A stretch of DNA of 64,000 bases from an uncultured Alphaproteobacteria bacterium (GCA_944393235.1 CALXZJ010000002.1:1739-65738), one strand, 5' to 3'; positions 25,718 to 41,737 are shown, numbered from the stretch's first letter. Numbers and translations: made by a program. Notes: a model not told the origin generated them from the letters alone.

Positions 25718-25729
25718 TCAAAAAATATG

Positions 25730-25788: not shown

Positions 25789-25940
25789 GGTCTCACACCC
25801 GTCACCCCACGAGGATACGCCGTCCAAATCCTGTCACCCCACGAGGATACGCTAGTATCCGAGTTTAGGGGTCTCCCAAAGGACGCCTCAACCGCCGCAC
25901 GGTCGCGCGTCGGTGGCGTGACAAAAAAAGGTAACGTGAC
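25789..25940. repeat. Hairpin-unit repeat, copy B (between virB2 paralogs 1 and 2)
   Basis: It contains a truncated unit and a full GTCACCCCACGAGGATACGCTAGTATCCGAGTTTAGGGGTCTC unit, plus the CCAAAGGACGCCTCAACC tail shared with copy A. Confidence 0.85.
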
Positions 25941-26014
25941 AATATTGTAGCCATCCATAAAACGTTAATAAAATCTTCTTTATGATAAAACCAAAAAACG
26001 AAAGGTGAAAAACA

Positions 26015-26368
26015 ATGTTGCGCATAAATTTTAAGAAATATATTTTAGCGGGGCTGCTGGCATTCGCGCTTTCTTCAATTTTATGCGCAACCGATTCATA
26101 TGCCGTGTTTGAAAACCTCACCAGCACCGGTTGGGAAATTTTCGGCGGCATGCGTAAAATTATTTTTGGCGCGGCTGGCTTTGGTATCATTGCTGTTGCT
26201 ATTGGCAGCCTTTTTGGTTCCTTAAACTGGAAATGGCTCAGCGCAATCGTTATCGGCTTGATTGTGATTGCCCTAACCGTTGGTTTGGTACAATATCTGG
26301 TGGCAGGAACCGGTGCTGATATCTCGGTTTCCGGCATTACTGACACTTTAGTCAACGCCGGCGGCTAA
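26015..26368 (+). CDS. VirB2/TrbC-like pilin (paralog 2, divergent)
   Basis: 117 aa with a signal peptide and two TM helices flanking the loop GSLNWKWL. The topology and length match paralog 1. Confidence 0.65.
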   Translation: MLRINFKKYILAGLLAFALSSILCATDSYAVFENLTSTGWEIFGGMRKIIFGAAGFGIIAVAIGSLFGSLNWKWLSAIVIGLIVIALTVGLVQYLVAGTGADISVSGITDTLVNAGG

Positions 26369-26406
26369 AAAGTTTTTTATTGACTAACTTTTTTAAGGAG
26401 GCGGTC

Positions 26407-27447
26407 ATGATGAACAAAACAAACAAAATATTAGCGCTTTTGTTGCCGGCACTGTTCGTTTGTTTGCCGGTTGAGGCGTTTGCAGCGGGAGATATCTTTA
26501 CCATCATCTCCAACAAAATGGTTTCCACCGTTTTAGATGTCCGCAAAATTGTTTATGTCGTTGCCGGCTTTGGCTTGGTCATGTTTTCTGTTTTGGCTAT
26601 CTTTAACAAAATCAGCTTCAAACATTTATCATATATCATGATCGGCTTGTTTCTGCTTTCAGTCATGATGCCGTTTATCAACTATTTCAGCGGCGCCAAT
26701 TTGCGGGATTCCTCTTACACTTATGATGATTTTATTTCCGGTCAGGATTCCAGCATCACCGGCAGCAATGTGGAACAAACAGAAGACTGCACTACTGGAG
26801 CCAAATGCCCTGGCGGTACGGAAAATGGCGATGGCTCCGGCAGCAGCAACGCCGGCAGCGCCTTGGATAATGAGCTGGGTGAAAGTTATGGTGTTTCTGA
26901 TAACCAGGGCGGTACTACCGGCGGCTCGACAAACAGCACATCTAATGCCAACGCCTCAACCGGTGGTGAAAACTCCGGCGAGAAAAAGAGCTTCAAAGAA
27001 AAACTTAAAGACCTTGCCGATACTGCCGAAGATATCATCAGTGCCGGGAAAAGTGCGGTTAACTCTGTTGAATATGGCATGAATGTGGTCGACGAAACCA
27101 AGGAAGGTATTAGCGATGTTAGCGACATTATCTCCGGCGATGGCAATATTATTGATAAAATCGGCGACTTGGCAGGTTCTGTTAAGGGTTCAGTTGACAG
27201 TATAACTTCAAATGCAGATCAGTCTTTAGGCAGTGTGGCAAATACGGTAGATTCAGCGGGAGATGTTTTTGGCGTTTCGGATGCTTCTGAAAATTCCGGT
27301 GTCCAAGATGCTGTAGATACCGGTAAAGAAGCCAATAAAGATATTAGAAACGAAACAAATGATCACGCTAATCCGGTAAAAAATATCACAGGCGCAATTC
27401 GTACCGGACAAGATTTGATTAACCGAATGGGAAATTGGTTCGACTAA
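26407..27447 (+). CDS. VirB2-like pilin module fused to a ~240-aa G/S/D/N-rich C-terminal extension (paralog 3)
   Basis: An AGGAGG RBS precedes the ATG at 26407. The N-terminal ~105 aa has a signal peptide (VEAFA/AG) and two TM helices around NKISFKHL. The rest is low-complexity (GGTTGGSTNSTSNANASTGGENSG) followed by repetitive acidic helical sequence. Confidence 0.6.
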   Translation: MMNKTNKILALLLPALFVCLPVEAFAAGDIFTIISNKMVSTVLDVRKIVYVVAGFGLVMFSVLAIFNKISFKHLSYIMIGLFLLSVMMPFINYFSGANLRDSSYTYDDFISGQDSSITGSNVEQTEDCTTGAKCPGGTENGDGSGSSNAGSALDNELGESYGVSDNQGGTTGGSTNSTSNANASTGGENSGEKKSFKEKLKDLADTAEDIISAGKSAVNSVEYGMNVVDETKEGISDVSDIISGDGNIIDKIGDLAGSVKGSVDSITSNADQSLGSVANTVDSAGDVFGVSDASENSGVQDAVDTGKEANKDIRNETNDHANPVKNITGAIRTGQDLINRMGNWFD

Positions 27448-27556: not shown

Positions 27557-27847
27557 ATGCGAGATATGATTTTAAAAGCCGTTGCTCAGCCGCCAAAGCT
27601 TTTTTGGGGGCCGGTTTTACCCGTCGCTTTAAATGCCGGCTTGCAGTTCCCTTTAATGTTTATGATGATTGGTGTCGGCGATGTCAACCCTCTGGTGTTT
27701 ATCTTTACCATTATCATAGCTCATGGCTTTATCATCTTGGCAGGCACGCGCGAACCGCACTTGTCAGCCATGATTCAGGCTTTTGGCCAAACCAACAAAG
27801 TTTCAACCAATTTATACCCGGAAAGAGGAAACAAATTTGAACCCTGA
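27557..27847 (+). CDS. virB3: VirB3/TrbD-family T4SS inner-membrane protein
   Basis: 96 aa, MRDMILKAVAQPPKLFWGPVLPVALNAG... followed by a hydrophobic hairpin. It lies immediately upstream of and overlaps virB4. Confidence 0.8.
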   Translation: MRDMILKAVAQPPKLFWGPVLPVALNAGLQFPLMFMMIGVGDVNPLVFIFTIIIAHGFIILAGTREPHLSAMIQAFGQTNKVSTNLYPERGNKFEP

Positions 27848-30269
27848 TTTTGATTTTTTTACCATATTTGTAGACGGTTTAAGCAACGTTGAGGTTGCCA
27901 TAACCGTTATTGGTTTTGTTTCAGCAGCGGCTTTTGCTGTTTTGCTTTCAACCCGCTTTGGCGCTTGGGTTTTGCCGCAGCCGCGTGAATCCCGCGTGTC
28001 AGACTTTTTGCCCTTTGCCAAACTGATGGAAGACGGCATGACCATCCGCTGCACCAATGGCTCATATGCCCGCGTCTTTCGCATTACCGGTATGGATTTG
28101 GCTTCAGCCACGCCGGAAAAGGTGTATTCCATGATGGAGGCGCGCAAATCATGGATTGATAACCTCTCAGAGCTTCAAATTGTCTGTCGGGTAATTACAC
28201 TGCGTGAACGCGCTGAAATGGAAGAAGATAAAGGCGATTTTCAAAACGAACTGCTGGAAAAAGTATCTAAAGTCTGGTCTGACAACATGAGCCGGATTTA
28301 TACCAACCACCACTATATCATTTTGTCAGTCATTGACCGCAAAGATGCCTTAAAAGACCTGAATTATGCCAGCCAATCCCTGGTTGCGACATTAGGCGAA
28401 TATGGTGTCTCGCAAATGTATGAATCTCCGGACAGCCCGGCGGTAGACAGTCCGCTTTATGTCTTTAGCCGCCTTTGCAGCCCGGTCTCCAAGCCTGAAC
28501 CAAAAATCCGCCATGCCGAAGGGCCGGAGTTAAACGAAATGCTTACCTCTGACCATATTCACTTTACGCGTGAACAGGGGATTATCCGTTTCTTTTCCGG
28601 CGAAAAAGAACTGTATGAAATTGTGATGGGCATCCGCACCACCGGCGATTATATGGACGAAAGCATGATTGTCTCTCTGCTCTCGATTGATTGTGAGCTG
28701 GTTCTTTTGCACAATATCCGCCCGATTTTTAAACCTCAGGCACGTATGATGCTTATCCAACAGCAGCGCATGGCGGCATTAACCAGTTTTTCGCCGGAGG
28801 TGGTTGCTCAATATGGCGAAGCCTTAGCCACAATAGAAGACAGCGATGCCGATTATCAAGCTTTAACCGAATATTCAATGTCGGTTATCCTTAAAGGTGC
28901 AAGTCAGGAAGAGCTGGATTTTGGTGAATCTGAAGTACAAAGAATTTGCCGTAGTTTTGGCGTTACGCCTGTGCGTGAAGGCTGGGTGGCTCAAGCAACG
29001 TTCTTTAGCCAATTCCCGACATACGATACATATCCGCGGACATATAGATATTTATCTCGGGTTGTTTCTTTGGCAATTTCATTTGACAAACCGGCGGAAG
29101 GTTTCGGCAAGAGCGACTGGGGACCGGGCGCTATTACGGTTTTCCGCACCATGTCCGGTTCGGCTTATCGTTTCCAATTCCACGTTTCTTCTGAAGAATC
29201 TGCTGTGGCGCACTGCTGTATTATTGGTCCGACCGGACAAGGTAAAACAACCTTGCTGACTTTTTTGGCAGGACAAGCCATGCGGCATGGCGATTTAAAA
29301 GTGTTCTTCTTTGACCGTCACCGCGGTGCTGAAATTTTCACGCGCTCCATAGGCGGCGCATACATCGGCTTTGACGGCGACAATAAAAATGTGTCCTTAA
29401 ATCCGTTTGATGCTGAAAACACGCCTAACAACCGTGCCTTTTTACGCCGCTGGATGAAGTCCATCACCATGGCAGATGATGCCCTATCCGAGCGTGAAAT
29501 TGCTCGCGCGGTAACCACGGCGTTTGACTATCTGCGTCCGGAAGAACGTATTATGAAAAATCTGTACAAAAGCTGTTTTTCGCCAACCGGAACCATGCGC
29601 CGCGAACTGTATCGCTGGATTAATCCGGACCAATACGGTAATATTTTTAATGCTGATACCGATAGTCTGGACTTAAAAGCCAAACGCTTTATGGCATTTG
29701 ACTTTACGCATATTTTTGAAGACGAAACCTTGGCTCCGGCTGTCATTAGCTACATCATGCACCGTATCCAATCCGAAACCGGCGAAACCGGCGTGCCGTC
29801 GTTAATTATGATCGATGAAACGGCGCCAATGTTAAAGCACCCGATGTTTAGAGATTATTTCATGATTGGTTTGCAAGAAGGCCGTAAAAAACGTCAAGCT
29901 TATTTGTGCGCCTTCCAACAGCCGAATATTATAGACAAGTTAGGCGTCGGCGAGGTTATCCGCGGTCAATGCCAAACGGTTATCTTTTTCAGAAACCCGC
30001 AAGCAATGGTAGAAGACTATGTCAGTTGGAACTTAACCCAGAGCGAGCTTGACTTTGTTTTCGGCAAAACCTATCGCGATTTTCCGTATGCAATATTGTT
30101 GTCGCGTCCGGCAACCGGTGAATCTGTCATCTTAGATGTTGATTTAAGCGCTTTGGGTCCGTATTTGAAACTTTATAATTCCGGCCGTAAAAACGTGCTG
30201 CTGGTTGAAGAGCTGATAAAAGAATATGGCGAGAACAATTTTGTTACAAAATATTTAAATATGGCGTAA
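27837..30269 (+). CDS. virB4: VirB4/TrbE-family T4SS ATPase
   Basis: ~810 aa. Walker A is IIGPTGQGKTTLL and Walker B SLIMIDETAP. The start is uncertain: I prefer the TTG at 27837 (GAGGA RBS, overlaps the virB3 stop) to the ORF-track TTG at 27783. Confidence 0.9.
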   Translation: MNPDFDFFTIFVDGLSNVEVAITVIGFVSAAAFAVLLSTRFGAWVLPQPRESRVSDFLPFAKLMEDGMTIRCTNGSYARVFRITGMDLASATPEKVYSMMEARKSWIDNLSELQIVCRVITLRERAEMEEDKGDFQNELLEKVSKVWSDNMSRIYTNHHYIILSVIDRKDALKDLNYASQSLVATLGEYGVSQMYESPDSPAVDSPLYVFSRLCSPVSKPEPKIRHAEGPELNEMLTSDHIHFTREQGIIRFFSGEKELYEIVMGIRTTGDYMDESMIVSLLSIDCELVLLHNIRPIFKPQARMMLIQQQRMAALTSFSPEVVAQYGEALATIEDSDADYQALTEYSMSVILKGASQEELDFGESEVQRICRSFGVTPVREGWVAQATFFSQFPTYDTYPRTYRYLSRVVSLAISFDKPAEGFGKSDWGPGAITVFRTMSGSAYRFQFHVSSEESAVAHCCIIGPTGQGKTTLLTFLAGQAMRHGDLKVFFFDRHRGAEIFTRSIGGAYIGFDGDNKNVSLNPFDAENTPNNRAFLRRWMKSITMADDALSEREIARAVTTAFDYLRPEERIMKNLYKSCFSPTGTMRRELYRWINPDQYGNIFNADTDSLDLKAKRFMAFDFTHIFEDETLAPAVISYIMHRIQSETGETGVPSLIMIDETAPMLKHPMFRDYFMIGLQEGRKKRQAYLCAFQQPNIIDKLGVGEVIRGQCQTVIFFRNPQAMVEDYVSWNLTQSELDFVFGKTYRDFPYAILLSRPATGESVILDVDLSALGPYLKLYNSGRKNVLLVEELIKEYGENNFVTKYLNMA

Positions 30270-30351: not shown

Positions 30352-32178
30352 ATGAACAAAAAACAAACATCTAAAATTTTTTGTTTAACATGCATAAGCA
30401 CAGTCATGCTGGCTTCAACGGCTTATGGCCTGTGGCCGACGACGGATGTGGCTCAAATAACAAACATGATTAACAGTGTTTCAACCCAGATAGAATCAAC
30501 ATCTTCTACCGTTCAGTCTACCTTATCAATTGGTAAAATACAACAGGCTATCGGCGATAACGTCGGCAGTCTGTCAAAGTTTACCAACGCTGCTGAAGAT
30601 GCCAAAAAAGCCGCAGAAGAACTTGAAAAACAAAAAAAGCGGGCTGAGCGCTTGCAGGAATTAAAAGAAAAATATGAAGAACAAAAAGAAAAAATAGAAG
30701 ATACAATTGATGAAGGCAAAGAAACCGCCGAGCAATTATCCGATACGGCGAAAGATAAATATGAAGACGGTATGTCTTTATATGAAAGCGGAAAAACGAC
30801 TTTAGGGCAAAGCAGCGGTTCTGATGACAGCGTTGTTGATAATACCGATGAAGATACGCTTACAACGCAAGAACAAGAAGATGTTTTCACTTCAGGCGAA
30901 AACCATACAACAACTGAAAACAAAACGCCTGACAATAATAACACAAATGACGATACGGCAGACCTGATGGACGATGAGGCTCTGGATGATGAGGCAATTG
31001 CTGATTTGATTTCAGATGAAGAATTTTCCGAAGGCGGTTGGGATGATTTGCCGACTTTAGATCAAACTGAAACGCTAAATGGAACACGCTTGCCGGGAAG
31101 TGGTGGAGCGTTACCGGAAACCGGAATTCTGCCGCCCAATACAATAGGTCGCCGACCATTTACGCCAAACGTTACGGTAGAACCTGTTGCGGTTGGCAGT
31201 GAAACGATAGAAACCGGAGGAAACCCGACCGCAGAAACCAATGAAGCTACGGCAGCTTTTGAAGAAACAACAGCCGAAGAAGAAGTTTTATTACCACAAA
31301 CCGAAGGGAACGCTGGACAGCCGACAGAGCCTGAACTTTCTTCATCATCGGCGCCGTTATCAACCCCGGCATCTGTGACATCATCAGCCTCAACATCTGC
31401 AGCGCCTTCCGTAACGCGCCGAGCTTTCAGAATACAAAAAGGGACGGTTGAAAACACAGCGCCGACACTATCTGCGCCGGTTGATAATGCGCCAACCGCA
31501 GCGCCTATGATTATGGTACCGGCAGCTGACGCGGCAAAGCCGGTTGAGGCGGATGTCTCTGTCAATCCTGCAATTGCGCCGATGTCAATCAAACAAAGGC
31601 CTGCCCGCCGCGCATTTACAACCTCGTCGGCAGATTTCTTTTATCAAAGTACTCGACCTTTTGCTTTTGCTCAAACAACTGAAACCTCATCATCATATAA
31701 AACCGGAACGACGGATAACGGGAAGTTCATATATTCAGACATCATCGCCAACAAATGCGGTATCAATTTCGATGATGAATTTGATGAAGAAACTTGGGAT
31801 GAATGTGTCAAAGAATGGGTTATGGCTATGAATGATCCGAATGCGGAAACAGCCGCCGAATGGAGAAAAGCATACAATGAAGCGGAAAGAGAGCATGTTT
31901 CTGCCGATTTAGGCATGGCTTTAGTGCAAAAAAGCTATGCGGCTGCATTTGATACCGAGGTGGCAAAAGATTTAAAAAGCAAATCTCAGGCGCTGACCAA
32001 TGAGCGTGAAGAGATTGCTTTTGCCGGGAAAGCTGCCCTAACCAACCAAGAAATTATCATTCGTTTGATGGAGGCTATGACGGGGCAGGTTGTAACAGGA
32101 GCTTGGTCGAGCGTAAAGCTGATTGAAAAAGGTTATTACGATGAGGAAGAAGCCGATGAAGACGCAACTAATGAATAA
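30352..32178 (+). CDS. Secreted protein with a VirB5/TrbJ-like N-terminus, a coiled coil, a long T/E/P/A-rich disordered middle and a helical C-terminal domain
   Basis: AGGAGG RBS and a signal peptide. The mature N-terminus WPTTDVAQITNMINSVSTQIES resembles the (I/V)PV(I/T)D...(I/L).Q start of TrbJ/VirB5. It lies just after virB4, where trbJ/virB5 normally sits. Confidence 0.4.
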   Translation: MNKKQTSKIFCLTCISTVMLASTAYGLWPTTDVAQITNMINSVSTQIESTSSTVQSTLSIGKIQQAIGDNVGSLSKFTNAAEDAKKAAEELEKQKKRAERLQELKEKYEEQKEKIEDTIDEGKETAEQLSDTAKDKYEDGMSLYESGKTTLGQSSGSDDSVVDNTDEDTLTTQEQEDVFTSGENHTTTENKTPDNNNTNDDTADLMDDEALDDEAIADLISDEEFSEGGWDDLPTLDQTETLNGTRLPGSGGALPETGILPPNTIGRRPFTPNVTVEPVAVGSETIETGGNPTAETNEATAAFEETTAEEEVLLPQTEGNAGQPTEPELSSSSAPLSTPASVTSSASTSAAPSVTRRAFRIQKGTVENTAPTLSAPVDNAPTAAPMIMVPAADAAKPVEADVSVNPAIAPMSIKQRPARRAFTTSSADFFYQSTRPFAFAQTTETSSSYKTGTTDNGKFIYSDIIANKCGINFDDEFDEETWDECVKEWVMAMNDPNAETAAEWRKAYNEAEREHVSADLGMALVQKSYAAAFDTEVAKDLKSKSQALTNEREEIAFAGKAALTNQEIIIRLMEAMTGQVVTGAWSSVKLIEKGYYDEEEADEDATNE

Positions 32179-32833
32179 AGCTTTTATAGTCATGGCTGTC
32201 TTAGGCTTTGGCATGAGCTTTTCTCTGTCTGCACGAGCTGACATTGAAGCGGTAAGTGCTACAGCGAAAGGAATTATTATCCGGGCTGAAGATCTCAAAA
32301 AAGAAGCAGAAAAAAGGCTTTCAGAAGCAAAAAATCTAATAGCCTCACAAATTCAGGATTTTAACAATCTTAAAAGCTCAGTTGAAGGGCTCAAAGATAA
32401 TTTAACCAATCCGCTTGATTCTCCCAAAACATTTGTTTTGGGTGGTGTGCAAAAATCAACTGATGGCTCCAAAACTGATGGTGAATTGGCTAAAGATGTT
32501 GAGAAAACTTATGTTCGATACGAAGGGGATGATACCATAGTCAGAGCTCGAAAACTGCAAAATGACTTAAACAAAGTTATGGGTGAAAACGCCGCTCTTC
32601 TTTATGCCCGCACGCTGATACTGCGCCAAGAGCTGCTCAATGAAAAGAACCCGGAACATTCGCTTGAAACAATTGAAGATGCCTTGCAAGCCAGCAATGA
32701 CATGGTTCTTCTCTCTATGCAGCGCTGGAACAAAATTTTAGCCATGCAGGCTTATATCAACGAATACAACAATACCGTTGCTATCCATAATTTCAAACGG
32801 GAAGCTGAGGAGGAAGAAGATAATGAAGAATAA
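32156..32833 (+). CDS. Secreted all-helical protein (~226 aa), T4SS-linked, function unknown
   Basis: GAGGA RBS and signal peptide ending SLSARA/D. It has a helical/coiled-coil composition and an acidic tail (EAEEEEDNEE). It is translationally coupled to its neighbours. Confidence 0.6.
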   Translation: MKTQLMNKAFIVMAVLGFGMSFSLSARADIEAVSATAKGIIIRAEDLKKEAEKRLSEAKNLIASQIQDFNNLKSSVEGLKDNLTNPLDSPKTFVLGGVQKSTDGSKTDGELAKDVEKTYVRYEGDDTIVRARKLQNDLNKVMGENAALLYARTLILRQELLNEKNPEHSLETIEDALQASNDMVLLSMQRWNKILAMQAYINEYNNTVAIHNFKREAEEEEDNEE

Positions 32834-34079
32834 ACAAATTAACATATTCCTCCTAACTTGTTGCTGTTTCTTTGCTGTTGCTGCGGCAGAAACAGCCAGA
32901 GCGCAGACCAAACTTGATGCCGGGACATTGTCAAACACCATTTTAAAAACCATCGGAAACACCGAAGAAAGTGTTGGAGAAGCGACTAAAACTGCCGGTG
33001 AAAAAGCACAAGAATTATTAATCGGGCCGGTAGAAAATGCAAAGTTTGAAAAAATAAAGGCCCTAAAAGAAGATATTACCAAAGCACAGAGCACCATACA
33101 GGATAAATATGAAGAAGTTTCTGAAGATGTTGAAAATGCGGCTTCCGATATCAACGAAACAGCCGCCGATATCAACAAGACTGCCGACCAGATTGAAAAC
33201 AGCAGCCTTAAAAGCACGGCTGATTTAGGCAAACAACTCAACGACGTCAATCAGCAAATAGAAAATTACCAAACGGCAGCCTCTGAAGAACTAACAGCAA
33301 AAGCCAAAGCCGCCAATGACAATTATGCCGCTTTGCAGGCAATGTATGATGCCGCAGAAAACGAAGATGATAAAGCGGCAATTTCTGCCCAAATGTCTGC
33401 TTTGACGGAAGAAATCGACGGATACAACACCACGCTTGAGCAATTTGAAAATGGCGAAGTTGAAGATTATTTTAAAGATGATGAAGAATATCAGTCTTTG
33501 CTTGCCCAGCGTAATGACATTAACGCGCAGCTAAAAGACATTGGCGCAGCGGCTGCCGGTCTTGCCCTGACTTCAATTTCTAATCTTTTAAGCAAAACTG
33601 ATGAAGAAAAACAAGAAGAATATACTGGCGTGATTCTTAAAAATTTTCTGCAAAAGGATGAGCCTAACACGCCTGAAAATGTCAGCAGGGTGATGAATTA
33701 TCGGCGGGAAGTTTTCAAACAGGATGTTGCACATGCCTTATATACGGCTATTTCGCTAAAACTTAAGCTGGATGAAGAACTAAAGAGCATAAAGACCAAA
33801 CAAAAAAACATGGCAGCAGCCGATTATAAAATGACTGCCGGCAATTTGTTGGTTGAACAACGGATTGATGATATCAAAATTTTATATAATTATACCAATC
33901 TGCTGATTGCCGAAATGCGCTTGAAAACCTCGCAAAACATGCTTAATCAAGACCAGCGTTTAAAAAATTATGATAAAGATCCGGCAGTGCTTAACTTAGA
34001 TAATTATGTCTTTACCGAAGACGATATTCCGTCAGATGAAGGCAAAAGAAGCTTTTTGGATGATGTAACGGCAAATTAA
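32823..34079 (+). CDS. Secreted coiled-coil protein (~418 aa), T4SS-linked, function unknown
   Basis: GGAGGA RBS. The start overlaps the upstream stop. The signal peptide ends ETARA/Q. It is E/K/A/D-rich helical sequence throughout. Confidence 0.6.
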   Translation: MKNKQINIFLLTCCCFFAVAAAETARAQTKLDAGTLSNTILKTIGNTEESVGEATKTAGEKAQELLIGPVENAKFEKIKALKEDITKAQSTIQDKYEEVSEDVENAASDINETAADINKTADQIENSSLKSTADLGKQLNDVNQQIENYQTAASEELTAKAKAANDNYAALQAMYDAAENEDDKAAISAQMSALTEEIDGYNTTLEQFENGEVEDYFKDDEEYQSLLAQRNDINAQLKDIGAAAAGLALTSISNLLSKTDEEKQEEYTGVILKNFLQKDEPNTPENVSRVMNYRREVFKQDVAHALYTAISLKLKLDEELKSIKTKQKNMAAADYKMTAGNLLVEQRIDDIKILYNYTNLLIAEMRLKTSQNMLNQDQRLKNYDKDPAVLNLDNYVFTEDDIPSDEGKRSFLDDVTAN

Positions 34080-34089
34080 GGAGGAAACG

Positions 34090-37000
34090 ATGAAAAAATA
34101 TCAGTTGTTCAAATGGGCGATTATCCTTGCCGCTACACTCAGTGCAAATTCAGCAGTTGCTTTGCTTCCGCCGTGCTTTTTCTGTGCTTCGTTTGACAGT
34201 GCAACGGACGGCGGTTATGCAGGAGAAAGCACTACTGCAACAACAACCTCCATCAAAACCGAACTGGAACGGTTGCAAACTGAAGCCAACCAAACCTTAA
34301 AAGGAACGCTTGAGAAATTAAAACAACTTGATTTAACCCAAACTCTTTTTAACAAAGAAGAAGGTCAGCCCAACTTGGCAAGTGCTCGTACCATTGAACA
34401 AAGTGAAATTGCCGACATTACGAATGAAGATTCAATTGTTGAAGCCTTTCGTAAACTATTTTTAGTTTATCCGGAAGATATTCTTGCAAAATATCCGGAA
34501 AATCAACGGGCGGTTAAACGGGCATATGAAGATAAAGCAATTGAGTTTGGCAATGATGCCATGATTGAAATGTACATTACGGTCAGAGATCTGGAAGCCA
34601 GAATGGAAGCCCTCAAAATGGAGTATGACGCCTTAAGCATTTGTTATGTTCAAGGCGGAACCGCTGATACCAGCAGTTGTTCCGGCGCCTCATCCAGTGA
34701 AGACGAACTTGGTGTTTGGAGCAATTATTATAAACTAAACGTTATTTATGATTCTATGCTCAAAGTTACGGAAGAACTTATGGCTTTACGAGCACAATAC
34801 GAAGTAGCTCAGGCTGTTTTATCCGGCATTGAACCTGTGGAAGAAGATAAAAAAGAAGATACGGAAAATTCAGAACAAGAAACGGCAAATCAAGAAGAAG
34901 AGCAAGTCAGCAGCAATGAAGTTTTCCATTATCTTCATAGCCGCCAAATAGCTCATGCACAAATGTTTTCGACAAAATCAACTTCTGAGCGGCAAGCTAA
35001 GCTGACAACAAAAGAAACATCAACAGCAAAAGCAACGAATACTTCTGTAACAAATAAAACAGATACTGCAGATGCAGATACGGATGAAGATGAAGGGGGT
35101 GTTGTGCAGGCTGAACCATACAAAATCAGTTCGCCGTTTGCCGGAACGGCTGAACAGTTTCAAGCCTCTATAACAGCCAACAATGTTTATCAAACATTGC
35201 AAAAAGCCTTACAAGCGCATAATTTGAAGCAGCAGCTGCCGGAATATCGCAGAGTTTTTGTTGAATATAATAAGATGAAAGAGCAACACGAAAAAGCCCT
35301 TACACAGCTGATGAAATCTGAAAACTGCGCCATAAACTATCTTGGCAAATATTATATAGATCCGGTTAAGGTATGGTATGGCGATGGCTGCCGGTCGGTA
35401 GCGCAAAAAATTGTATGCGATTCCAACCGTACTTTAACGGCGGAAACATTAAAAAATTTATTGCCGGGCGATGTATTATGTGAAAATGATAAAACCAAAA
35501 TCTGCAGCAGTTATAACCTTAATGACTATTCCAGCCGCGAAGGTTTTTCTGGCTGGCTGATTTCGGCATATAAAGCTGCCAAAAGCGCAAAGGCGCTTAG
35601 CCTTAATGAAGAAGACCTTGCTTCCCCAATGACCAATACAAGCATAGAGCCAAATGTGGCAAACATAGAATCTTTAAGCGCACAATATAGTGCGGAAAGC
35701 GCAGCCGGCACGATGGACAGCTCATTGCTTAATCCAAGCCAAGAAGAAACAATAGAAAAAAATTTACGCGAACAAAATCTGATTTCTTGGCAGTTAGGTG
35801 CCGAGGCGGCTCGAAAAATCAGCAGCGATATGACTTCAGGGTCATCTGAATGGGGCGTGCTAAAAGCTTCTTATCCGATATGGGCCGACGAGAAACTTGT
35901 TTATCAGCAGTATTTAAAAGAAAAATACAAAAACATGAGGCTTTATATACAAAACCTGGATTTACGCCCCCAAACCGGTGAGTTGGTGCAAGCCATTAAT
36001 AATATTTTGCCGGCATCCGGGACTGTGGATGGCATCAATTTATTAGAAATTAAAAATTACAACAATTCTGTTTTAGAAAAATTGCTGCCATTAGTCTATC
36101 AAGACAAAAGCAATACAAAGGTCAAATTTAGAGCGGCGAAATTACAAGAAGATCTGGAAGACGAATTAAACGACCTTAAAACATCATTTTATGCTGAAAT
36201 GACAAGCTTAATTAACAGAAAAGACACGTTTTATGAAGATTATGATTCTGAAAATAAAAAATTAAACGAGTATAAAGCAAAATATAATGAGCAAATAGGA
36301 AACAAACAACAAGAAGAAAGTGATATTGAAGGTCAAAAAATAGTAATTGAAATTTCCCAAGACCGAAAAGCAAAATCTAAAGACGTTATGGGAAATTTTG
36401 AAGACAATGCCGAAAGCGCAATCAATGTGTCTAATGAAAAAGCCGCAGAAGCAGAGCAAGAATCCAAAACCTTTTTGCCGGGAATTGAGGAGCAACGCGG
36501 CAACATTGATAGTTTAAAATTAGAGCTAGAAAGTCTTGAAGAAAGCATTGCCCGTGCCAAAAGCAATTATGCTGCGCGGGCTTCTGAGGCAGAAGCTAAA
36601 GGCTTTGCGGAAATTAAGGCGGCATTGTCTGATAATGGGAACGATGCAGCTGCAGAAACGCTCGGCAGCAGCGATCATTTGGCTGATATCTTAAAGTCTG
36701 GCGGAAACATGGCTTCTCGCGCATTGTTATCAGCCATTATTAACGTTGCAGATGCGGCTACAAAAGAAGTTAGGCAGCAAATAATTAGTAAAATTAACGA
36801 AGCCTCAAGCAAAATAGCGGCTTTGGATGAAGACCGTTTTACCCAAAAAGGCTATGATAATATTGTGGCAATCCATCGCAAAATGCTCAATGATATAAAA
36901 GATGTGGATATTAATATTTCCATAAGCAGTACAAGTTTGGCAACATTTTTAACGGCGAATGCGGTAAAAGAGTTGGCAAAAGAAATCATTGTTAGCAATA

Positions 37001-38214
37001 TATTTGCAGAAATTTGTGGAAACAATGTTTGTTATGAGGAGGATAGCGAATATTTTGTCGGCGCCAATCCTCAACCGCATGATTTTATGGCGCCGAAAGA
37101 TCTTGTAACAACACCGACGCCGCCGCTGCGCGAAATAGTTCACTTTGACCGGAACGACTTTGCAGAAGTGCTAAAATCAGACACATGGATGACCATGAGA
37201 GATGGTGTCTTGGCTGGTTTCATGGCAACGGGGCAAAAATTACCGGAAATTTGGGAACGGATTTTAGGCGGCAGAGGCTTTGTAGAACGGGATATTGATA
37301 TGGAAGATATATTATCTTACAATCAATCGACCTATGATGTTTTACGACAAGGGGCTGGTTATCCGTGCACGACCGGAAAATACGATGTTTATATTCGTAA
37401 TGGCGAATATTATGTCGCAAATGCAACCGGCGAAATAAAACAGTTTTGCAAGGATATTCAAACAATAAGCTTGCCGTTGAGCCAAGCTGTAAAGATTTAT
37501 TTTATAGATGGTCGAGTTTCAAACGGCGCTACCAAAACACCTCCCGAAAAAGAACTTTCGAGCGAGCTGGCAACAATTTTAGCGTATGATGACGGTTTAA
37601 CATTTAATAGCTATATTAAAGAAATTATGGAGTTCTACGAAAATTACGCAAACGGAGAAAATGTTGATGAAAGCGTTCAAGAACGAGACAAGCTTTATAG
37701 AAAAGAATTGTTAATGCAAAATCAGTTTGGCGATTTCTTGAATTTTGTTGAAAATGAGATGATTTATCAAGACAATATTGATAAATTAGATGTCGAAATA
37801 GGACAAACGCGAGAAAAAATCAAAGAACAGTTGTCAGACATTGGATATGAACCACAAGAAGACTTTGATCTTGCCGATGATGTAACATATAATGAAATTA
37901 TGAATGCTTTAGATTCAACTAAAAACAAATATATGGAAGAGAGTGTCAGCCAAATTGACTCAATACAGCCATTAAATGATGTTATTGAAGAGAAGCTGAC
38001 AAAAATCAACAACATTGTCGGCGCGCTGCAAATGGATAATGAAGAGCGTGTTCTGTTAAGTGATAATATGTCAGGTAACAGCGAATTATCAGAAAAAAGT
38101 AAAAGCAAGCAGGTTGACGCTCAAGTTCGGGAAAAATACGAACAAGAGGCGCAAAAAGCGCATGAGGATAATTTAGCAAATTCTGAAGAACCCTATTGTG
38201 CAAATTATGAATAA
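34090..38214 (+). CDS. Very large secreted coiled-coil protein (1374 aa), T4SS-linked, function unknown
   Basis: AAGGAGG RBS and a signal peptide (...ANSAVA/LL). It has long heptad-like charged segments, several Cys pairs and no internal TM helices. Its stop overlaps the virB8 start (TAATG). Confidence 0.65.
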   Translation: MKKYQLFKWAIILAATLSANSAVALLPPCFFCASFDSATDGGYAGESTTATTTSIKTELERLQTEANQTLKGTLEKLKQLDLTQTLFNKEEGQPNLASARTIEQSEIADITNEDSIVEAFRKLFLVYPEDILAKYPENQRAVKRAYEDKAIEFGNDAMIEMYITVRDLEARMEALKMEYDALSICYVQGGTADTSSCSGASSSEDELGVWSNYYKLNVIYDSMLKVTEELMALRAQYEVAQAVLSGIEPVEEDKKEDTENSEQETANQEEEQVSSNEVFHYLHSRQIAHAQMFSTKSTSERQAKLTTKETSTAKATNTSVTNKTDTADADTDEDEGGVVQAEPYKISSPFAGTAEQFQASITANNVYQTLQKALQAHNLKQQLPEYRRVFVEYNKMKEQHEKALTQLMKSENCAINYLGKYYIDPVKVWYGDGCRSVAQKIVCDSNRTLTAETLKNLLPGDVLCENDKTKICSSYNLNDYSSREGFSGWLISAYKAAKSAKALSLNEEDLASPMTNTSIEPNVANIESLSAQYSAESAAGTMDSSLLNPSQEETIEKNLREQNLISWQLGAEAARKISSDMTSGSSEWGVLKASYPIWADEKLVYQQYLKEKYKNMRLYIQNLDLRPQTGELVQAINNILPASGTVDGINLLEIKNYNNSVLEKLLPLVYQDKSNTKVKFRAAKLQEDLEDELNDLKTSFYAEMTSLINRKDTFYEDYDSENKKLNEYKAKYNEQIGNKQQEESDIEGQKIVIEISQDRKAKSKDVMGNFEDNAESAINVSNEKAAEAEQESKTFLPGIEEQRGNIDSLKLELESLEESIARAKSNYAARASEAEAKGFAEIKAALSDNGNDAAAETLGSSDHLADILKSGGNMASRALLSAIINVADAATKEVRQQIISKINEASSKIAALDEDRFTQKGYDNIVAIHRKMLNDIKDVDINISISSTSLATFLTANAVKELAKEIIVSNIFAEICGNNVCYEEDSEYFVGANPQPHDFMAPKDLVTTPTPPLREIVHFDRNDFAEVLKSDTWMTMRDGVLAGFMATGQKLPEIWERILGGRGFVERDIDMEDILSYNQSTYDVLRQGAGYPCTTGKYDVYIRNGEYYVANATGEIKQFCKDIQTISLPLSQAVKIYFIDGRVSNGATKTPPEKELSSELATILAYDDGLTFNSYIKEIMEFYENYANGENVDESVQERDKLYRKELLMQNQFGDFLNFVENEMIYQDNIDKLDVEIGQTREKIKEQLSDIGYEPQEDFDLADDVTYNEIMNALDSTKNKYMEESVSQIDSIQPLNDVIEEKLTKINNIVGALQMDNEERVLLSDNMSGNSELSEKSKSKQVDAQVREKYEQEAQKAHEDNLANSEEPYCANYE

Positions 38215-38984
38215 TGGAACAAAAAATGAATAATCAACTGGGAAATGGCAACAATGTTTTAGCAATCACTGATGCAAATGCGCCCAAGCAGCAGTTTGCC
38301 TACATTACAGATGAAAGTCCGGAATTAAAAGGAGCTAAAGAAAGCTATTATTGCTGGTTATCCCGTTTGGTGATTTTGTTTGCCATATTATCGCTTGTTT
38401 TTTTCACCAGTGCTTCGTTGGTTTTGTTTCGTTTAGCGCCTGAAGTTACGGTAGAGCCGTTTTTAATCATTAGGCAAGACAGTTCCGATTCAATGGTTCG
38501 CTATGAGCCAATAGCCACCGATATGGCATCATCAAGACAGATGATGGAAAATTTCATTCGCCAATATGTTATTTTGCGCAACACGGTTTTAAACGACCAA
38601 CGCGAAATGCAAACGCGCTGGTTTGGTGGCGGCATGGTGGCTTATATGTCATCGCCTCAAGTTTTTGCTGAATTTAACCGGGATAGACAGAAAGAATTAA
38701 ACCAACTCATTCGGAACAGAGTTGTACGGGATGTTGAAATCATTTCCATTGGCAAGCTTGGCGGAGAAAAAAGCCCGGTATGGAAAGTAGACTTCCGCAC
38801 CTATGATTTATCGCCGGAAATTCGTAATGAAGCAAGTGGTAGCATGGTATTAGTCACCAAATATTGGACAGCATCCGTAACGGCATTTTTTATCCCCGAG
38901 CGTTTGTTTATGGCAAAGCGCCTGATGAATCCTTTGGGTTTCACGGTAACAAGATATTCTCAAACAGAAGTTGAAATTCTTTAA
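38214..38984 (+). CDS. virB8: VirB8-family T4SS protein (paralog 1)
   Basis: Bitopic: a cytoplasmic N-terminus, TM helix LVILFAILSLVFFTSASLVLF, then an NTF2-like periplasmic domain. The domain ends in the VirB8 hallmark NPLGFTVTRYSQ. Confidence 0.8.
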   Translation: MEQKMNNQLGNGNNVLAITDANAPKQQFAYITDESPELKGAKESYYCWLSRLVILFAILSLVFFTSASLVLFRLAPEVTVEPFLIIRQDSSDSMVRYEPIATDMASSRQMMENFIRQYVILRNTVLNDQREMQTRWFGGGMVAYMSSPQVFAEFNRDRQKELNQLIRNRVVRDVEIISIGKLGGEKSPVWKVDFRTYDLSPEIRNEASGSMVLVTKYWTASVTAFFIPERLFMAKRLMNPLGFTVTRYSQTEVEIL

Positions 38985-39130: not shown

Positions 39131-39319
39131 ATGTATAAAAAAATTGTTTTACTGATTGCTATTCTGATTTTAACGGCATGCGGAATGTTCGGTTCATATT
39201 ATGAGCCGGAACCGGTTGGTATTGGTAAAGATGTAAATGAATTAAAGCTTTCCCCTTGTGCCTGCATTGAAATAGAATTGCCCAAAACATTGCCGGATTG
39301 GTTTGTGGCAACAATATAA
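39131..39319 (+). CDS. Small lipoprotein, VirB7-like by size and position
   Basis: 62 aa with the lipobox LILTAC. It lies between two virB8 genes and just upstream of virB9. Confidence 0.55.
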   Translation: MYKKIVLLIAILILTACGMFGSYYEPEPVGIGKDVNELKLSPCACIEIELPKTLPDWFVATI

Positions 39320-40114: not shown

Positions 40115-41737
40115 ATGAAATGTTACCTAACAAAAATATTTTCTATTTTAGCTTTAGCAACAATACCGTTGTCCGCCAGAGGGCAGGCAACCATTGACAG
40201 CTTAAATCAAAATGCTGATCAGAGCCAAGGCATGTACCAACCAATGAACATTGGTTATACAGGCATTAGCTCATTAGGCATGATGCAAAGCGCTTGGTTG
40301 GATCCTCTGCAAAATTTGGGCGAAGGACAAAGCAAGCCGGCGTATTCCAAATATTACTGGTCGCCGGATTTAGTGCTTCCTGTTCGGTTACGCGAAGGAA
40401 TGATGACGTTGATTAATTTTCCGGAATGGGAATTGGTTGAAGACGTCTATATTGGCGATAGCAAAACCTTTGATGGCCGAATTTCAGGGCCAAGCACATT
40501 GCTTCTTTACCCAAAACAAGGCGCAATGGTCGGGGTTGATACCAACATTATCGTTTTCGGCCGGTCTGGAAACAAATATGTGTTTTATGCCCGTAGTGAA
40601 GGGGTAAATACAGAACGCTTAACCAACTCAATTATTGATGTTGAAGTGGTAGATTCCGGAAAAAATGGTAGTACCGTCGGAAGCCTTGGCAGCGGTTCCG
40701 GCGGCGGTCATGTCAATGCCAGTTCTTATCGTGGAGGAAATGAAAAATCGGTGGATTCAACGTTTACAAAGCGGTATCAAAAAGAAGATTGGATTCAAAG
40801 TATTCCGTTAGATCCTTCACAATTTCGCTTTGATATAGAAATTTATGTGCCAAATCCGGATGATGTGGTTATTGCGCCGGAACGTGTTTGGCATGATGAC
40901 ATCTTTACCTATATTGATTTGGGTGAAAAAGCTCTTAATATGATACAACGTCCGATTGTAACGCTGATTGTCGAAAGAATGGAAACGCCTGTCGGCTTTA
41001 GAACAAAAGGTCCAAACAACCGCCTGATTATTGTTGAAGGGGTTGGCGATATGGTTTTGCGCAACGGCAAACGTGTTGTCTGCTTAAAGATGCGTCGGGA
41101 TGATGCCGAAGGCTTGGACGATGTGACATATGCCGAAAGCAATGATTGGGATGTGCCGCCGGCTATTCCTGCAGGGAAAAAATCATCAGGGACGAGTGCT
41201 GGCGCTGCCGGTTACGGAGCGGGCGGCGTTCAGGGTTTTGGCAATGGATACCGCGCTTCAGGTGCATATAATGCTGATGGCGAAGTTGTCGGTGAAAACG
41301 TAGTCAAAGTTGGCTCAAAAGGTGAGTTATTACAGCCTGAATATGCTAAAGGAAACGGCAAAGACATTGATTATAGTAAAATGCACCGCCTGCCGCATCA
41401 AGGCAAAATGAGCGCAGAAGAGGAGGAAAAGCTCTTTGGAAACTACAAATATGGCAGTGGTTTTGAAGGAGATGACACGGCAAGCATTTCGGTTGAGTTG
41501 GGAACTGATGCAGACGTAAATAATTTGGAAAATCTTTGGAGCGAGCTGTCAAAGAAATATTCTGCGCTTTTAAGCCAATATCAGCCGTTTTACTCGGTTG
41601 ATGCACCGGCAGATGGGCAGGGTAAAGAATTGTTCCATTTAAGAATAGGGCCGGTTCAATCTATTGATGCCGGAGACAGTATTTGCAGCCAGCTTGGTCG
41701 TAATGGCGTTTTTTGCAGCGTTGTCAGAGTCCAATAA
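40115..41737 (+). CDS. virB9: VirB9/TrbG-family outer-membrane core protein with a Gly-rich linker and a C-terminal SPOR-like domain
   Basis: It has a signal peptide, then the VirB9 N-domain (YYWSPDLVLPVRLREGMMTLINFP...IVFGRSGNKYVFYARS) and C-domain (RFDIEIYVP...ERVWHDDIFTYIDLG...VVCL). The last ~85 aa are SVELGTDADVNNLENLWSELSKKYSALLSQYQPFYSVDAPADGQGKELFHLRIGPVQSIDAGDSICSQLGRNGVFCSVV. This fits the alphaproteobacterial SPOR pattern. Confidence 0.85.
   Translation: MKCYLTKIFSILALATIPLSARGQATIDSLNQNADQSQGMYQPMNIGYTGISSLGMMQSAWLDPLQNLGEGQSKPAYSKYYWSPDLVLPVRLREGMMTLINFPEWELVEDVYIGDSKTFDGRISGPSTLLLYPKQGAMVGVDTNIIVFGRSGNKYVFYARSEGVNTERLTNSIIDVEVVDSGKNGSTVGSLGSGSGGGHVNASSYRGGNEKSVDSTFTKRYQKEDWIQSIPLDPSQFRFDIEIYVPNPDDVVIAPERVWHDDIFTYIDLGEKALNMIQRPIVTLIVERMETPVGFRTKGPNNRLIIVEGVGDMVLRNGKRVVCLKMRRDDAEGLDDVTYAESNDWDVPPAIPAGKKSSGTSAGAAGYGAGGVQGFGNGYRASGAYNADGEVVGENVVKVGSKGELLQPEYAKGNGKDIDYSKMHRLPHQGKMSAEEEEKLFGNYKYGSGFEGDDTASISVELGTDADVNNLENLWSELSKKYSALLSQYQPFYSVDAPADGQGKELFHLRIGPVQSIDAGDSICSQLGRNGVFCSVVRVQ

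What the first reader, a model, noticed from the sequence alone, without database searches (positions are those of the whole stretch)
30352..38214. Block of four translationally coupled secreted helical proteins (608, 226, 418, 1374 aa) at the VirB5/VirB6 position
Seen: all four have cleavable signal peptides, strong RBSs, overlapping or abutting stops and starts, coiled-coil-like E/K/A/Q composition and no TM helices. The first mature N-terminus (WPTTDVAQITNMINSV) resembles the conserved start of TrbJ/VirB5. The others begin with looser versions (LDAGTLSNTILKTIG in 32823..34079). All share a helical motif of the type NAALLYARTLIL / NDAMIEMYITVRDL / DVAHALYTAISLKL. Inference: this may be an expanded family of VirB5-like periplasmic or pilus-tip proteins. 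Alternatively they may be structural additions to the core complex, analogous to Cag3/CagM/CagT-type accessory proteins.
Basis: partly seen in the sequence, partly recalled or inferred. Interest (0 to 1): 0.7.

Follow-up and report, generated by a model that had tools for sequence, protein, structure and literature searches.

The report
Divergent VirB5-like block, no VirB6
Four exported helical proteins between VirB4 and VirB8 of a chromosomal type IV secretion system look like very old, fast-evolving copies of the pilus-tip/stalk protein VirB5 (one fused to a 1,000-residue orphan module), in a lineage whose loci encode no recognisable VirB6.

Summary
Four tightly coupled genes lie between VirB4 and VirB8. 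Each product has a Sec-type signal peptide, is acidic and E/K/A/Q-rich, and has no further TM helix. One correction: P2 starts at ATG 32156, giving 225 aa.

The block is strictly syntenic in about 12 loci from uncultured Alphaproteobacteria. It diverges much faster (44-62% identity) than VirB4/VirB8 (86-93%).

Pfam, NCBIfam, PDB sequence searches, all-vs-all BLAST, AlphaFold2 (pLDDT 42 and 52) and Foldseek give nothing specific.

Family profiles enriched with distant relatives do align to VirB5. The matches fall at the mature N-terminus (PxxD start) and on the same C-terminal helix, in one register for all four. Every score exceeds reversed and block-shuffled controls (z 4.6-13; positive control 15). 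HHalign's own probabilities stay at or below 62%.

P4 is a fusion. Its first ~260 residues are VirB5-like. The remaining ~1,030 residues are an orphan module that is a separate gene, with its own signal peptide, in three more distant lineages.

No polytopic VirB6 is encoded in any locus of this lineage or in its sister plasmid lineage.

This is a new variant of a known kind.

The parts
27557..27847 (+). VirB3-like gene (96 aa, 2 TM); context
   Evidence: ORF. A 96-aa gene sits at the same place, overlapping VirB4, in relatives.
27783..30269 (+). VirB4 ATPase, the upstream neighbour. The true start is probably near 27837, giving 810 aa as in relatives.
   Evidence: Pfam CagE_TrbE_VirB E 3.7e-17. 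82-92% identity to relatives. Relatives' genes are 810-811 aa.
30352..32178 (+). P1, 608 aa: VirB5-like protein split by a long disordered linker. Signal peptide res 1-26; VirB5-type N-terminal helix/coiled coil res 27-150 (30430-30801); variable acidic S/T/P-rich linker res 151-430 (30802-31641) with three RR[AP]F motifs and 'AFAQ'; conserved two-Cys helical C-domain res 431-608 (31642-32175).
   Evidence: N-domain vs VirB5 P 1.9e-4, z 6.3. C-domain vs VirB5 res 150-213 P 0.0095, 0/200 shuffles. Compact 276-aa orthologue in L035 and a two-gene version in L034. The C-domain family has 136 representative clusters.
32156..32833 (+). P2, 225 aa: exported helical protein of VirB5 size; weakest VirB5-like signal.
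   Evidence: Start corrected. 11 homologue clusters. Aligns to VirB5 res 151-244 over 87 columns, P 0.014, z 4.6, 0/200 shuffles. Orthologues L034_257 and L035_233.
32823..34079 (+). P3, 418 aa: exported, almost entirely helical. VirB5-like N-terminal start; VirB5-like core at res ~271-382 (33633-33968); conserved C-terminal tail.
   Evidence: 58 homologue clusters. Vs VirB5 P 2.1e-4, z 13. N-terminus vs P1 N-terminus P 7.8e-5. AF2 DSSP helices 37-375.
34090..34875 (+). P4 N-terminal module (res 1-262): signal peptide plus a VirB5-sized helical domain starting LLPPCFFCASFD.
   Evidence: A separate 228-264 aa gene with its own signal peptide in L004, L034 and L035. Vs long VirB5 paralogue P 5e-4, z 8.8. 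N-terminus vs VirB5 P 3.6e-3, z 5.8.
34876..35109 (+). P4 acidic/S-T-rich linker (res 263-340) with an 'F.Y....A[FH]AQ' motif shared with P1.
   Evidence: Alignments; motif positions.
35110..38214 (+). P4 C-terminal module (res ~341-1374): orphan periplasmic protein with 10 of P4's 14 mature Cys (the other four lie in the N-terminal module), conserved globular blocks and a central coiled coil.
   Evidence: A separate 1123-1264 aa gene with its own signal peptide in L004, L034 and L035. Only coiled-coil noise in PDB and Pfam. No match to VirB5 or VirB6 profiles. Conservation map.
38214..38984 (+). VirB8 paralogue a, the downstream neighbour; its start overlaps the P4 stop.
   Evidence: Pfam VirB8 E 1.9e-16; junction.
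39131..39319 (+). VirB7-like 62-aa lipoprotein (LTAC lipobox, SPCAC motif); context
   Evidence: BLAST E 1e-8 to the lipoproteins of the Microvirga and Erythrobacter plasmid T4SSs.
39345..40094 (+). VirB8 paralogue b; context
   Evidence: Pfam VirB8 E 9.1e-21.

Best explanation
The block encodes a set of ancient, strongly diverged paralogues of VirB5 (TrbJ/TraC family): P1, P2, P3 and the first ~260 residues of P4. A large orphan periplasmic module has been fused to the last paralogue.

Shown:
- All four are exported by Sec.
- They are made in step with VirB4 and VirB8 through overlapping or abutting genes.
- They keep the two VirB5 landmarks: the mature N-terminal 'P-x-x-D + helix' start and the C-terminal helical core.

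Inferred:
- In the periplasm they assemble, probably as a hetero-oligomer, into the central stalk and/or the pilus-tip complex. In canonical systems that structure is built from a VirB5 pentamer sitting on a VirB6 pentamer.
- They nucleate polymerisation of the three VirB2-like pilins encoded upstream.
- Their rapid divergence and the variable disordered linkers mean that parts of them are surface-exposed and contact a target cell.
- Because no polytopic VirB6 is encoded in these loci, some of the VirB6 platform role may be taken over by these soluble proteins or by the P4 C-terminal module.
For: - Position and coupling: directly after VirB3/VirB4 and before VirB8, with overlapping starts and stops.
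- Conservation: the block is conserved as a unit in all relatives.
- Nearest plasmid systems: the closest plasmid T4SSs (VirB4 35-39% identical) carry at the same place a bona fide VirB5 (Ea_251, PF07996 30.3 bits against a cut-off of 24.7). They also carry a second, longer VirB5 paralogue (hhalign 95-97%). VirB5 duplication at this slot therefore predates the window's lineage.
- Profile-profile matches to VirB5: P1 N-domain P 1.9e-4; P1 C-domain 0.0095; P2 0.014; P3 2.1e-4; P4N 5e-4 and 3.6e-3; P1N vs P3N 7.8e-5.
- All matches are colinear with VirB5.
- Every score exceeds the reversed profile and all 40-200 block-shuffled profiles, z 4.6-13, against 15 for the positive control.
- Distant orthologues carry textbook VirB5 starts: 'FGIPAIDIQAL' and 'VPVFDPGSLATQI'.
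- Fast evolution: 44-62% identity, against 86-93% for VirB4/VirB8, in the same genomes.
- No ORF of 180 aa or more with at least 4 TM segments occurs in the operon or in 11 related loci. Canonical TrbJ loci have a 6-7 TM VirB6 next to VirB5.
- Established knowledge: VirB5 and VirB6 pentamers form the R388 stalk, and VirB5 is at the pilus tip (PMC9259494, PMC12857230).
Against: - No protein of the block or its relatives reaches the Pfam VirB5 threshold. NCBIfam and PDB sequence searches are empty.
- HHalign probabilities are low (3-62%) and the family profiles are shallow.
- There is no pairwise similarity among the four. Direct family-vs-family core comparisons are mostly insignificant.
- The AF2 models were too poor to test the fold, and Foldseek returned only generic helical bundles.
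- P2 support is marginal.
- The assembly, stoichiometry, localisation and VirB6-replacement steps are inference only.
- A VirB6 gene could lie elsewhere in the genome.
Confidence: 0.55

Rival explanations
1. The proteins are lineage-specific structural additions to the core complex or periplasmic ring, comparable to Cag3/CagM/CagT. They are unrelated to VirB5, and the weak VirB5 matches reflect shared helical composition.
For: - The system is otherwise expanded: VirB9 carries a SPOR domain, VirB10 carries ~1,000 residues of beta-flower repeats, and an extra 1,208-aa beta-flower protein lies between them.
- The P4 C-terminal module has no VirB5 or VirB6 signal.
- Pfam, PDB and Foldseek give no VirB5 hit.
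Against: - Reversed and block-shuffled profiles, which keep the composition, never reach the observed scores.
- The matches fall at homologous, colinear positions and in one register.
- Distant orthologues have canonical VirB5 N-termini.
- The sister plasmids have proven VirB5 paralogues in this slot.
Confidence: 0.2
2. The four are unrelated coiled-coil or helical periplasmic proteins with separate, unknown roles such as chaperones, spacers or peptidoglycan-spanning struts. The common motifs are chance.
For: - All-vs-all BLAST is negative.
- Core-segment hhalign among the four is insignificant.
- The AF2 models are low-confidence.
Against: - The same control results apply.
- Four independent alignments agree on register.
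- The N-terminal motif is shared across P1, P3 and P4N families.
Confidence: 0.12
3. They are secreted substrates, adhesins or effectors carried by the operon rather than parts of the machine.
For: - Fast evolution.
- Long disordered acidic linkers.
Against: - Sec signal peptides send them to the periplasm, unlike typical VirD4-dependent T4SS effectors.
- They are invariant in order and number, embedded between VirB4 and VirB8, and translationally coupled in every locus.
- Effector genes are normally variable and peripheral (general knowledge).
Confidence: 0.05

Closest known systems
VirB5 / TrbJ / TraC family (Pfam PF07996; pKM101 TraC, R388 TrwJ)
   Same: - Sec-exported, helical, and encoded right after VirB4.
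- Mature N-terminus of the P-x-x-D type followed by a long helix.
- C-terminal helical core that aligns in register.
   Different: - No member reaches the Pfam threshold.
- Four (elsewhere five or six) mutually unrecognisable paralogues instead of one gene.
- Sizes of 225-1374 aa rather than about 220-250 aa.
- P1 carries a 280-residue disordered insert and a two-Cys C-domain.
- P4 carries a 1,000-residue fusion.
- There is no VirB6 partner gene.
Short plus long VirB5 paralogue pair of MOBQ plasmids of Microvirga, Erythrobacter and Sphingosinicella (loci L012, L013, L015, L016)
   Same: - Nearest VirB4 (35-39% identity).
- Homologous VirB7-like SPCAC lipoprotein.
- Two exported VirB5-like proteins between VirB4 and VirB7/VirB8.
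- No polytopic VirB6.
- The long paralogue starts with a Cys/Pro-rich segment before the I-x-D, like P4.
   Different: - These are conjugative plasmid systems with relaxase and VirD4.
- They have only two paralogues and no P4 C-terminal module.
- They have a single VirB8 and no beta-flower expansions.
- Similarity to P1-P4 is detectable only at profile level.
Bartonella Trw: tandem trwJ (virB5)-trwI-trwH and trwL (virB2) duplications (PMC2610397)
   Same: - Multiple variant copies of the VirB5 and VirB2 pilus components in a chromosomal alphaproteobacterial T4SS.
- No coupling protein nearby.
- In Trw the copies are thought to be surface-exposed and diversifying.
   Different: - The Trw copies are recent tandem duplicates that remain clearly similar.
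- They are duplicated together with VirB6 and VirB7.
- Here the paralogues are ancient, of different sizes and architectures, and VirB6 is missing.
Helicobacter Cag CagH-CagI-CagL module (PMC3164655, PMC10194873)
   Same: - Adjacent genes in one operon encode species-specific pilus-biogenesis proteins.
- One of them (CagL) is regarded as the VirB5 counterpart.
- They are linked by a short shared motif.
- The system has a VirB10 with a large repeat insertion.
   Different: - No sequence relationship was found.
- The Cag system has a VirB6 (CagW).
- CagH has a TM segment.
- The Cag motif is a C-terminal hexapeptide, which is not seen here.
Rickettsiales vir homologue (rvh) (PMC2653234)
   Same: - Chromosomal alphaproteobacterial T4SS.
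- Duplicated VirB8.
- Multiple large genes in the slot after VirB4.
   Different: - In rvh the genes in this slot are polytopic VirB6 paralogues and VirB5 is absent.
- Here the situation is the reverse.

Membership tests
VirB5/TrbJ/TraC (PF07996) | Score above the Pfam gathering threshold for PF07996 | tested here: not met
   No PF07996 hit for P1-P4 at E<=1, for 93 distant P1-family members at E<=0.01, or for the L034/L035 orthologues. The control Ea_251 passes with 30.3 bits.
VirB5/TrbJ/TraC (PF07996) | Cleavable Sec signal peptide and no membrane anchor | tested here: met
   Read by eye from the sequence and a Kyte-Doolittle hydropathy scan; no dedicated signal-peptide predictor was run.
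VirB5/TrbJ/TraC (PF07996) | Gene immediately downstream of virB4 in the structural operon | tested here: met
   P1 follows VirB4 and the whole block lies between VirB4 and VirB8. The same holds in all relatives.
VirB5/TrbJ/TraC (PF07996) | Conserved mature N-terminus (I/V-P-V-x-D followed by the alpha-1 helix) | tested here: met
   - P1 'WPTTD', in register with VirB5 (P 1.9e-4, z 6.3).
- P4N 'ASFD', with orthologue 'VPVFDPGSLATQI'.
- P3 'KLDAGTLSN'.
- P2 only 'ADIEAVSAT', which is loose.

VirB5/TrbJ/TraC (PF07996) | Profile-level homology of the C-terminal helical core | tested here: inconclusive
   The alignments are colinear and in register, and they exceed all controls (z 4.6-13). HHalign probabilities are only 3-46%.
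VirB5/TrbJ/TraC (PF07996) | Three-helix bundle with a globular appendage (TraC fold) | tested here: inconclusive
   AF2 models of P1 and P3 have mean pLDDT 42.5 and 52.2. Foldseek gave no hit at E<=0.001. P2 and P4 were not modelled.
VirB5/TrbJ/TraC (PF07996) | Pentamer on the VirB6 platform; location at the pilus tip | not testable with these tools
   Needs multimer modelling, cryo-EM/ET or immunolabelling.
VirB6/TrbL (PF04610) | Polytopic protein with 4-7 hydrophobic helices | tested here: not met
   No TM segment beyond the signal peptides. No ORF with at least 4 TM segments in any related locus.
VirB6/TrbL (PF04610) | Profile similarity to VirB6 | tested here: not met
   hhalign of all families against a VirB6 profile gives P 0.5-0.96. 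No significant TrbL hit in Pfam for P1-P4; the only TrbL match among the orthologues is non-significant (L034_385, E 0.21, 11.8 bits against a cut-off of 25.9).
Cag3/CagM/CagT-type core-complex additions | Sequence or fold similarity to the Cag outer-membrane core-complex proteins | tested here: not met
   No Pfam, PDB-sequence or Foldseek match to Cag components. CagL appears only at Foldseek E 8.8, which is meaningless.
Cag3/CagM/CagT-type core-complex additions | Location in the outer-membrane core complex | not testable with these tools
   Needs structural or biochemical work.

The most novel reading that the evidence does not exclude
This lineage and its sister plasmid lineage may run a type IVA secretion system with no VirB6 at all. 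The central stalk and pilus-nucleation platform would then be a hetero-oligomer of Sec-exported, soluble VirB5-derived paralogues, together with the P4 C-terminal module. This would be a different solution to a step thought to depend universally on a polytopic VirB6 pentamer.
Probability: 0.25. Interest if true: 0.8.

Novelty: new variant of a known kind. Interest (0 to 1): 0.6.

Why it matters
A recent review states that VirB6 is highly conserved among all T4SSs (PMC12857230). The R388 structure makes the VirB6/VirB5 pentamers the platform for pilus growth (PMC9259494).

A well-conserved lineage that has multiplied and remodelled VirB5 into four to six unrecognisable paralogues, with no VirB6 gene in the locus, would give a natural test of which stalk functions really need VirB6. 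It would also show how far VirB5 can diverge.

The sister plasmids occur in cultured strains (Erythrobacter aureus YH-07, Sphingosinicella sp. BN140058, Microvirga sp. VF16), so the question can be tested experimentally.

The work also defines several unannotated protein families. One is a two-Cys C-domain family with 136 representative clusters. All of them currently escape T4SS annotation.

Tried and rejected
- Pfam and NCBIfam scans of P1-P4 gave only sub-threshold coiled-coil noise.
- phmmer and hmmsearch of P1, the P1 family and the P4 C-module against PDB sequences gave only designed helical bundles and viral heptad repeats.
- All-vs-all BLASTP of the four gave nothing below E 0.5.
- First hhalign rounds with shallow profiles gave probabilities of 38% or less. 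A wider TrbJ profile did not help.
- The next printed the raw hhalign lines, but its shuffle statistics are void because the wrong column was parsed.
- AlphaFold2 of P1 (pLDDT 42.5, pTM 0.20) and P3 (52.2, 0.37) was too poor. Foldseek against PDB gave generic helical hits only, none at E<=0.001.
- The search for related loci with the P1 alignment was swamped by a low-complexity pattern.
- A Pfam scan of 93 distant P1 C-domain relatives gave no VirB5, only coiled-coil families and a few DUF4141 hits.
- VirB6 ancestry for any of the proteins, for the P4 C-module or for Microvirga's 228-aa TM protein is rejected: hhalign P>0.5.
- Tape-measure or SMC-type identity is rejected: those hits are far below threshold and confined to coiled-coil stretches.

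Full report
**Observation**

The window carries a chromosomal type IV secretion operon on the + strand. Its genes, in order, are:
- three VirB2-like pilin genes (25232-27447)
- VirB3-like (27557-27847)
- VirB4 (to 30269)
- the four genes of the finding
- VirB8a
- a 62-aa VirB7-like lipoprotein
- VirB8b
- VirB9 with a SPOR domain
- a 1,208-aa beta-flower protein
- VirB10 with about 1,000 residues of beta-flower repeats
- VirB11

The flanks are housekeeping genes: ATP synthase a, DsbA-like, DciA, XerC/D-type recombinase, shikimate kinase, RNase PH, AddAB and thioredoxin on one side, and an EngB-type GTPase, YidC, RnpA and RuvAB on the other. The system is therefore chromosomal.

The four ORFs exist as described, with one correction. 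Position 32153 is CCG. The RBS-preceded ATG is at 32156, so P2 is 225 aa.

The junctions show a Shine-Dalgarno sequence before each start. There are overlaps of 23, 11 and 1 nt, and one 10-nt gap.

Each product has a charged n-region, a hydrophobic h-region and an AxA-type cleavage site. None has any other hydrophobic 19-mer, even at a relaxed threshold.

The mature proteins are acidic (pI 4.2-4.8). They contain 32-37% E+K+A+Q, against 20-23% in the core subunits.

**Reality and distribution**

The block is conserved in order and approximate size in every related locus obtained. All come from metagenome-assembled, uncultured Alphaproteobacteria.

Gene sizes across these loci are 475-790 aa, about 225 aa, 400-440 aa and 1,320-1,570 aa.

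In the same genomes VirB4 is 91-92% identical and the VirB8 paralogues are 86-93% identical, but the four proteins are only 44-62% identical. In the more distant UBA3773 MAG the figures are 82% for VirB4 against 23-37% for the four. The block therefore evolves several times faster than the machine around it.

None of the homologues found in 5.8 billion clusters has a name or a relevant Pfam domain.

**Direct tests that failed**

- Pfam, NCBIfam and PDB sequence searches give only coiled-coil noise.
- BLASTP finds no similarity among the four.
- AlphaFold2 with the available alignments gave poor models: P1 mean pLDDT 42.5 and P3 52.2.
- Foldseek against PDB returned only generic helical bundles, none at E<=0.001.

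**Comparative route**

The nearest VirB4 proteins in annotated plasmids (35-39% identity) are on MOBQ plasmids of Microvirga, Erythrobacter and Sphingosinicella. These plasmids also share the SPCAC lipoprotein.

Between VirB4 and VirB7/VirB8 they carry a 251-273-aa protein. In Erythrobacter this protein passes the Pfam VirB5 threshold with 30.3 bits.

They also carry a 420-520-aa exported helical protein. This is clearly a second VirB5 paralogue (hhalign 95-97%, E down to about 1e-10). Its true N-terminus is a signal peptide followed by a Cys/Pro-rich segment and I-x-D. It is annotated too short in two records.

Duplication of VirB5 at this slot therefore predates the window's lineage.

A full HMMER search with the P1 C-terminal domain found 136 representative clusters. 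Through them I reached two more distant loci of the same T4SS lineage:
- L035 has five genes in the slot: 276, 233, 378, 239 and 1,123 aa.
- L034 has six: 290, 337, 257, 385, 228 and 1,200 aa.

These loci show three things:
- P4 is a fusion. Its first ~260 residues correspond to a separate 228-264-aa gene, and the rest to a separate 1,123-1,264-aa gene. Each has its own signal peptide in L034, L035 and UBA3773.
- P1 exists as a compact 276-aa protein without the linker in L035, and as two genes in L034.
- The distant orthologues carry textbook VirB5 starts: 'FGIPAIDIQAL' for P1 and 'VPVFDPGSLATQI' for P4N. Compare TrbJ 'IPVIDPANLAQSI'.

**Profile evidence**

I enriched the family profiles with these sequences and compared them with VirB5 profiles using hhalign.

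| Comparison | P |
|---|---|
| P1 N-domain vs VirB5 N-terminus | 1.9e-4 |
| P1 C-domain vs VirB5 res 150-213 | 0.0095 |
| P2 vs VirB5 res 151-244 | 0.014 |
| P3 vs VirB5 res 139-200 | 2.1e-4 |
| P4N vs core of the long VirB5 paralogue | 5e-4 |
| P4N N-terminus vs VirB5 N-terminus | 3.6e-3 |
| P1 N-terminus vs P3 N-terminus | 7.8e-5 |

That helix is Ea_251 'RETAITGFGAAASFK'. The register agrees within one residue.

HHalign's own probabilities are low (3-62%). I therefore ran controls that keep composition and local structure: reversed profiles and 7-column block shuffles.

No control reached any observed score. The tallies were 0/40 for the seven family comparisons and 0/200 for P2 and for the P1 C-domain.

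| Comparison | z |
|---|---|
| P3 | 13 |
| P4N | 8.8 and 5.8 |
| P1 N-domain | 6.3 |
| P1 C-domain | 5.9 |
| P2 | 4.6 |
| Positive control (short vs long VirB5 paralogue) | 15 |

My reading is that VirB5 ancestry is well supported for P3, P4N and P1, and plausible but marginal for P2.

The P4 C-terminal module matches neither VirB5 nor VirB6. It matches nothing in Pfam or PDB beyond a central coiled coil.

**VirB6**

No ORF of 180 aa or more with at least 4 TM segments lies in the operon. The only such ORFs in the 64-kb window are unrelated genes (ATP synthase a, the PilC-type T2SSF and YidC) or antisense ORFs. None occurs in the flanks held for the eight related MAG loci scanned, nor in the three sister plasmid loci.

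In contrast, canonical TrbJ loci fetched as controls carry a 340-400-aa protein with 4-7 predicted TM segments (6-7 in most) immediately after VirB5. The Paracaedimonas plasmids carry a 5-TM VirB6.

None of the four families shows any profile similarity to VirB6.

A VirB6 gene elsewhere in the genomes cannot be excluded.

**Mechanism**

Shown:
- Sec export
- co-expression with VirB4 and VirB8
- the VirB5-type landmarks
- fast divergence

From established knowledge: in R388 a VirB5 pentamer sits on a VirB6 pentamer to form the stalk and nucleate the pilus. VirB5 ends up at the pilus tip (PMC9259494, PMC12857230).

Inferred:
- The paralogues form a hetero-oligomeric stalk or tip complex for the pilus built from the three VirB2-like pilins.
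- The variable linkers and the P4 C-module are exposed and interact with a target.
- Some of the VirB6 platform role is taken over by these proteins.

**Comparison and novelty**

Multiplied VirB5 is already known in Bartonella Trw, where there are recent tandem trwJ copies duplicated together with virB6 and virB7 (PMC2610397). A motif-linked trio including a VirB5 counterpart is known in Cag (CagH/I/L; PMC3164655).

Three features are new here:
- a fixed set of four to six ancient paralogues that are mutually unrecognisable
- their remodelled architectures, namely a 280-residue disordered insert and a 1,000-residue fusion
- the apparent absence of VirB6

I file this as a new variant of a known kind. 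Interest is 0.6.

Noticed in passing
window 25232-50586; loci L001-L015, L032-L035: No polytopic VirB6 gene (at least 4 TM segments) occurs anywhere in the T4SS operon, in the eight related MAG loci scanned, or in the three nearest plasmid T4SS loci. L032-L035 show only signal-peptide segments in the block proteins. Control TrbJ loci have a 4-7 TM VirB6 next to VirB5.
   Followed up: partly
window 41753-45379 and 45342-49598: A 1,208-aa protein made of 5-fold/4-fold beta-flower repeats lies between VirB9 and VirB10. VirB10 itself carries about 1,000 residues of the same repeats before its TrbI domain. This layout recalls the repeat-expanded CagY.
   Followed up: no
window 40115-41737: VirB9 (CagX domain) has a long Gly/Ser-rich spacer and a C-terminal SPOR (peptidoglycan-binding) domain.
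   Followed up: no
window 25232-25717, 26015-26368, 26380-27447: There are three VirB2-like pilin genes. The third (355 aa) has a pilin-like N-terminus followed by a ~250-residue S/G/N/D-rich tail. Relatives have tails that bring the protein to 619 aa.
   Followed up: partly
window 14132-24651 (- strand) and 13137-14096 (+): A type IVb pilus cluster (TcpQ, secretin, PilO-like, T2SSE ATPase, T2SSF platform, PilS/bundlin-type pilin) is divergently adjacent to the T4SS. The same pairing is seen in L008, L010 and L034. An extra 319-aa T2SSE-type ATPase lies just beyond it.
   Followed up: no
window 31150-31665 (P1 res 267-438) and 34960-35025 (P4 res ~291-312): P1 carries three RR[AP]F motifs (res 267, 356, 419). 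It also carries an 'F.Y....AFAQ' motif just before its C-domain, and the same motif ('VFHYLHSRQIAHAQ') follows the P4 N-module. 'RRPF' followed by S/T or a basic residue recurs in distant relatives. Where the genes are split, a signal peptide ending in an A-x-A-Q-type site (e.g. 'LALNAQ', 'TAKTAQ') occupies this place, so the motif may be a relic of a signal-peptidase site.
   Followed up: partly
L013 17206-18691; L015 12260-13647: The long VirB5 paralogues of the Erythrobacter and Sphingosinicella plasmids are annotated with starts too far downstream. The full ORFs begin with a signal peptide and 'QLGPCPSPIMPPPCI(V/I)AD'. The records call them hypothetical proteins.
   Followed up: partly
window 39131-39319: A 62-aa lipoprotein with a conserved 'SPCAC(I)' motif lies between the two VirB8 paralogues. 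It is homologous to the lipoproteins preceding VirB8 in the sister plasmids and is a probable VirB7.
   Followed up: partly
window 27783-27847: The longest VirB4 ORF (828 aa, TTG 27783) overlaps VirB3 by 65 nt. Relatives have 810-811 aa, so the real start is probably the TTG near 27837.
   Followed up: partly
L032 15165-20114: In one distant relative the operon stops after the first VirB8. It is followed by a nitroreductase and ABC transporter genes, so the T4SS genes are split between sites in that genome.
   Followed up: no
L012 17216-17902: The Microvirga plasmid has a 228-aa protein with 3-4 TM segments between its short and long VirB5 paralogues. It shows no profile similarity to VirB6.
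   Followed up: partly
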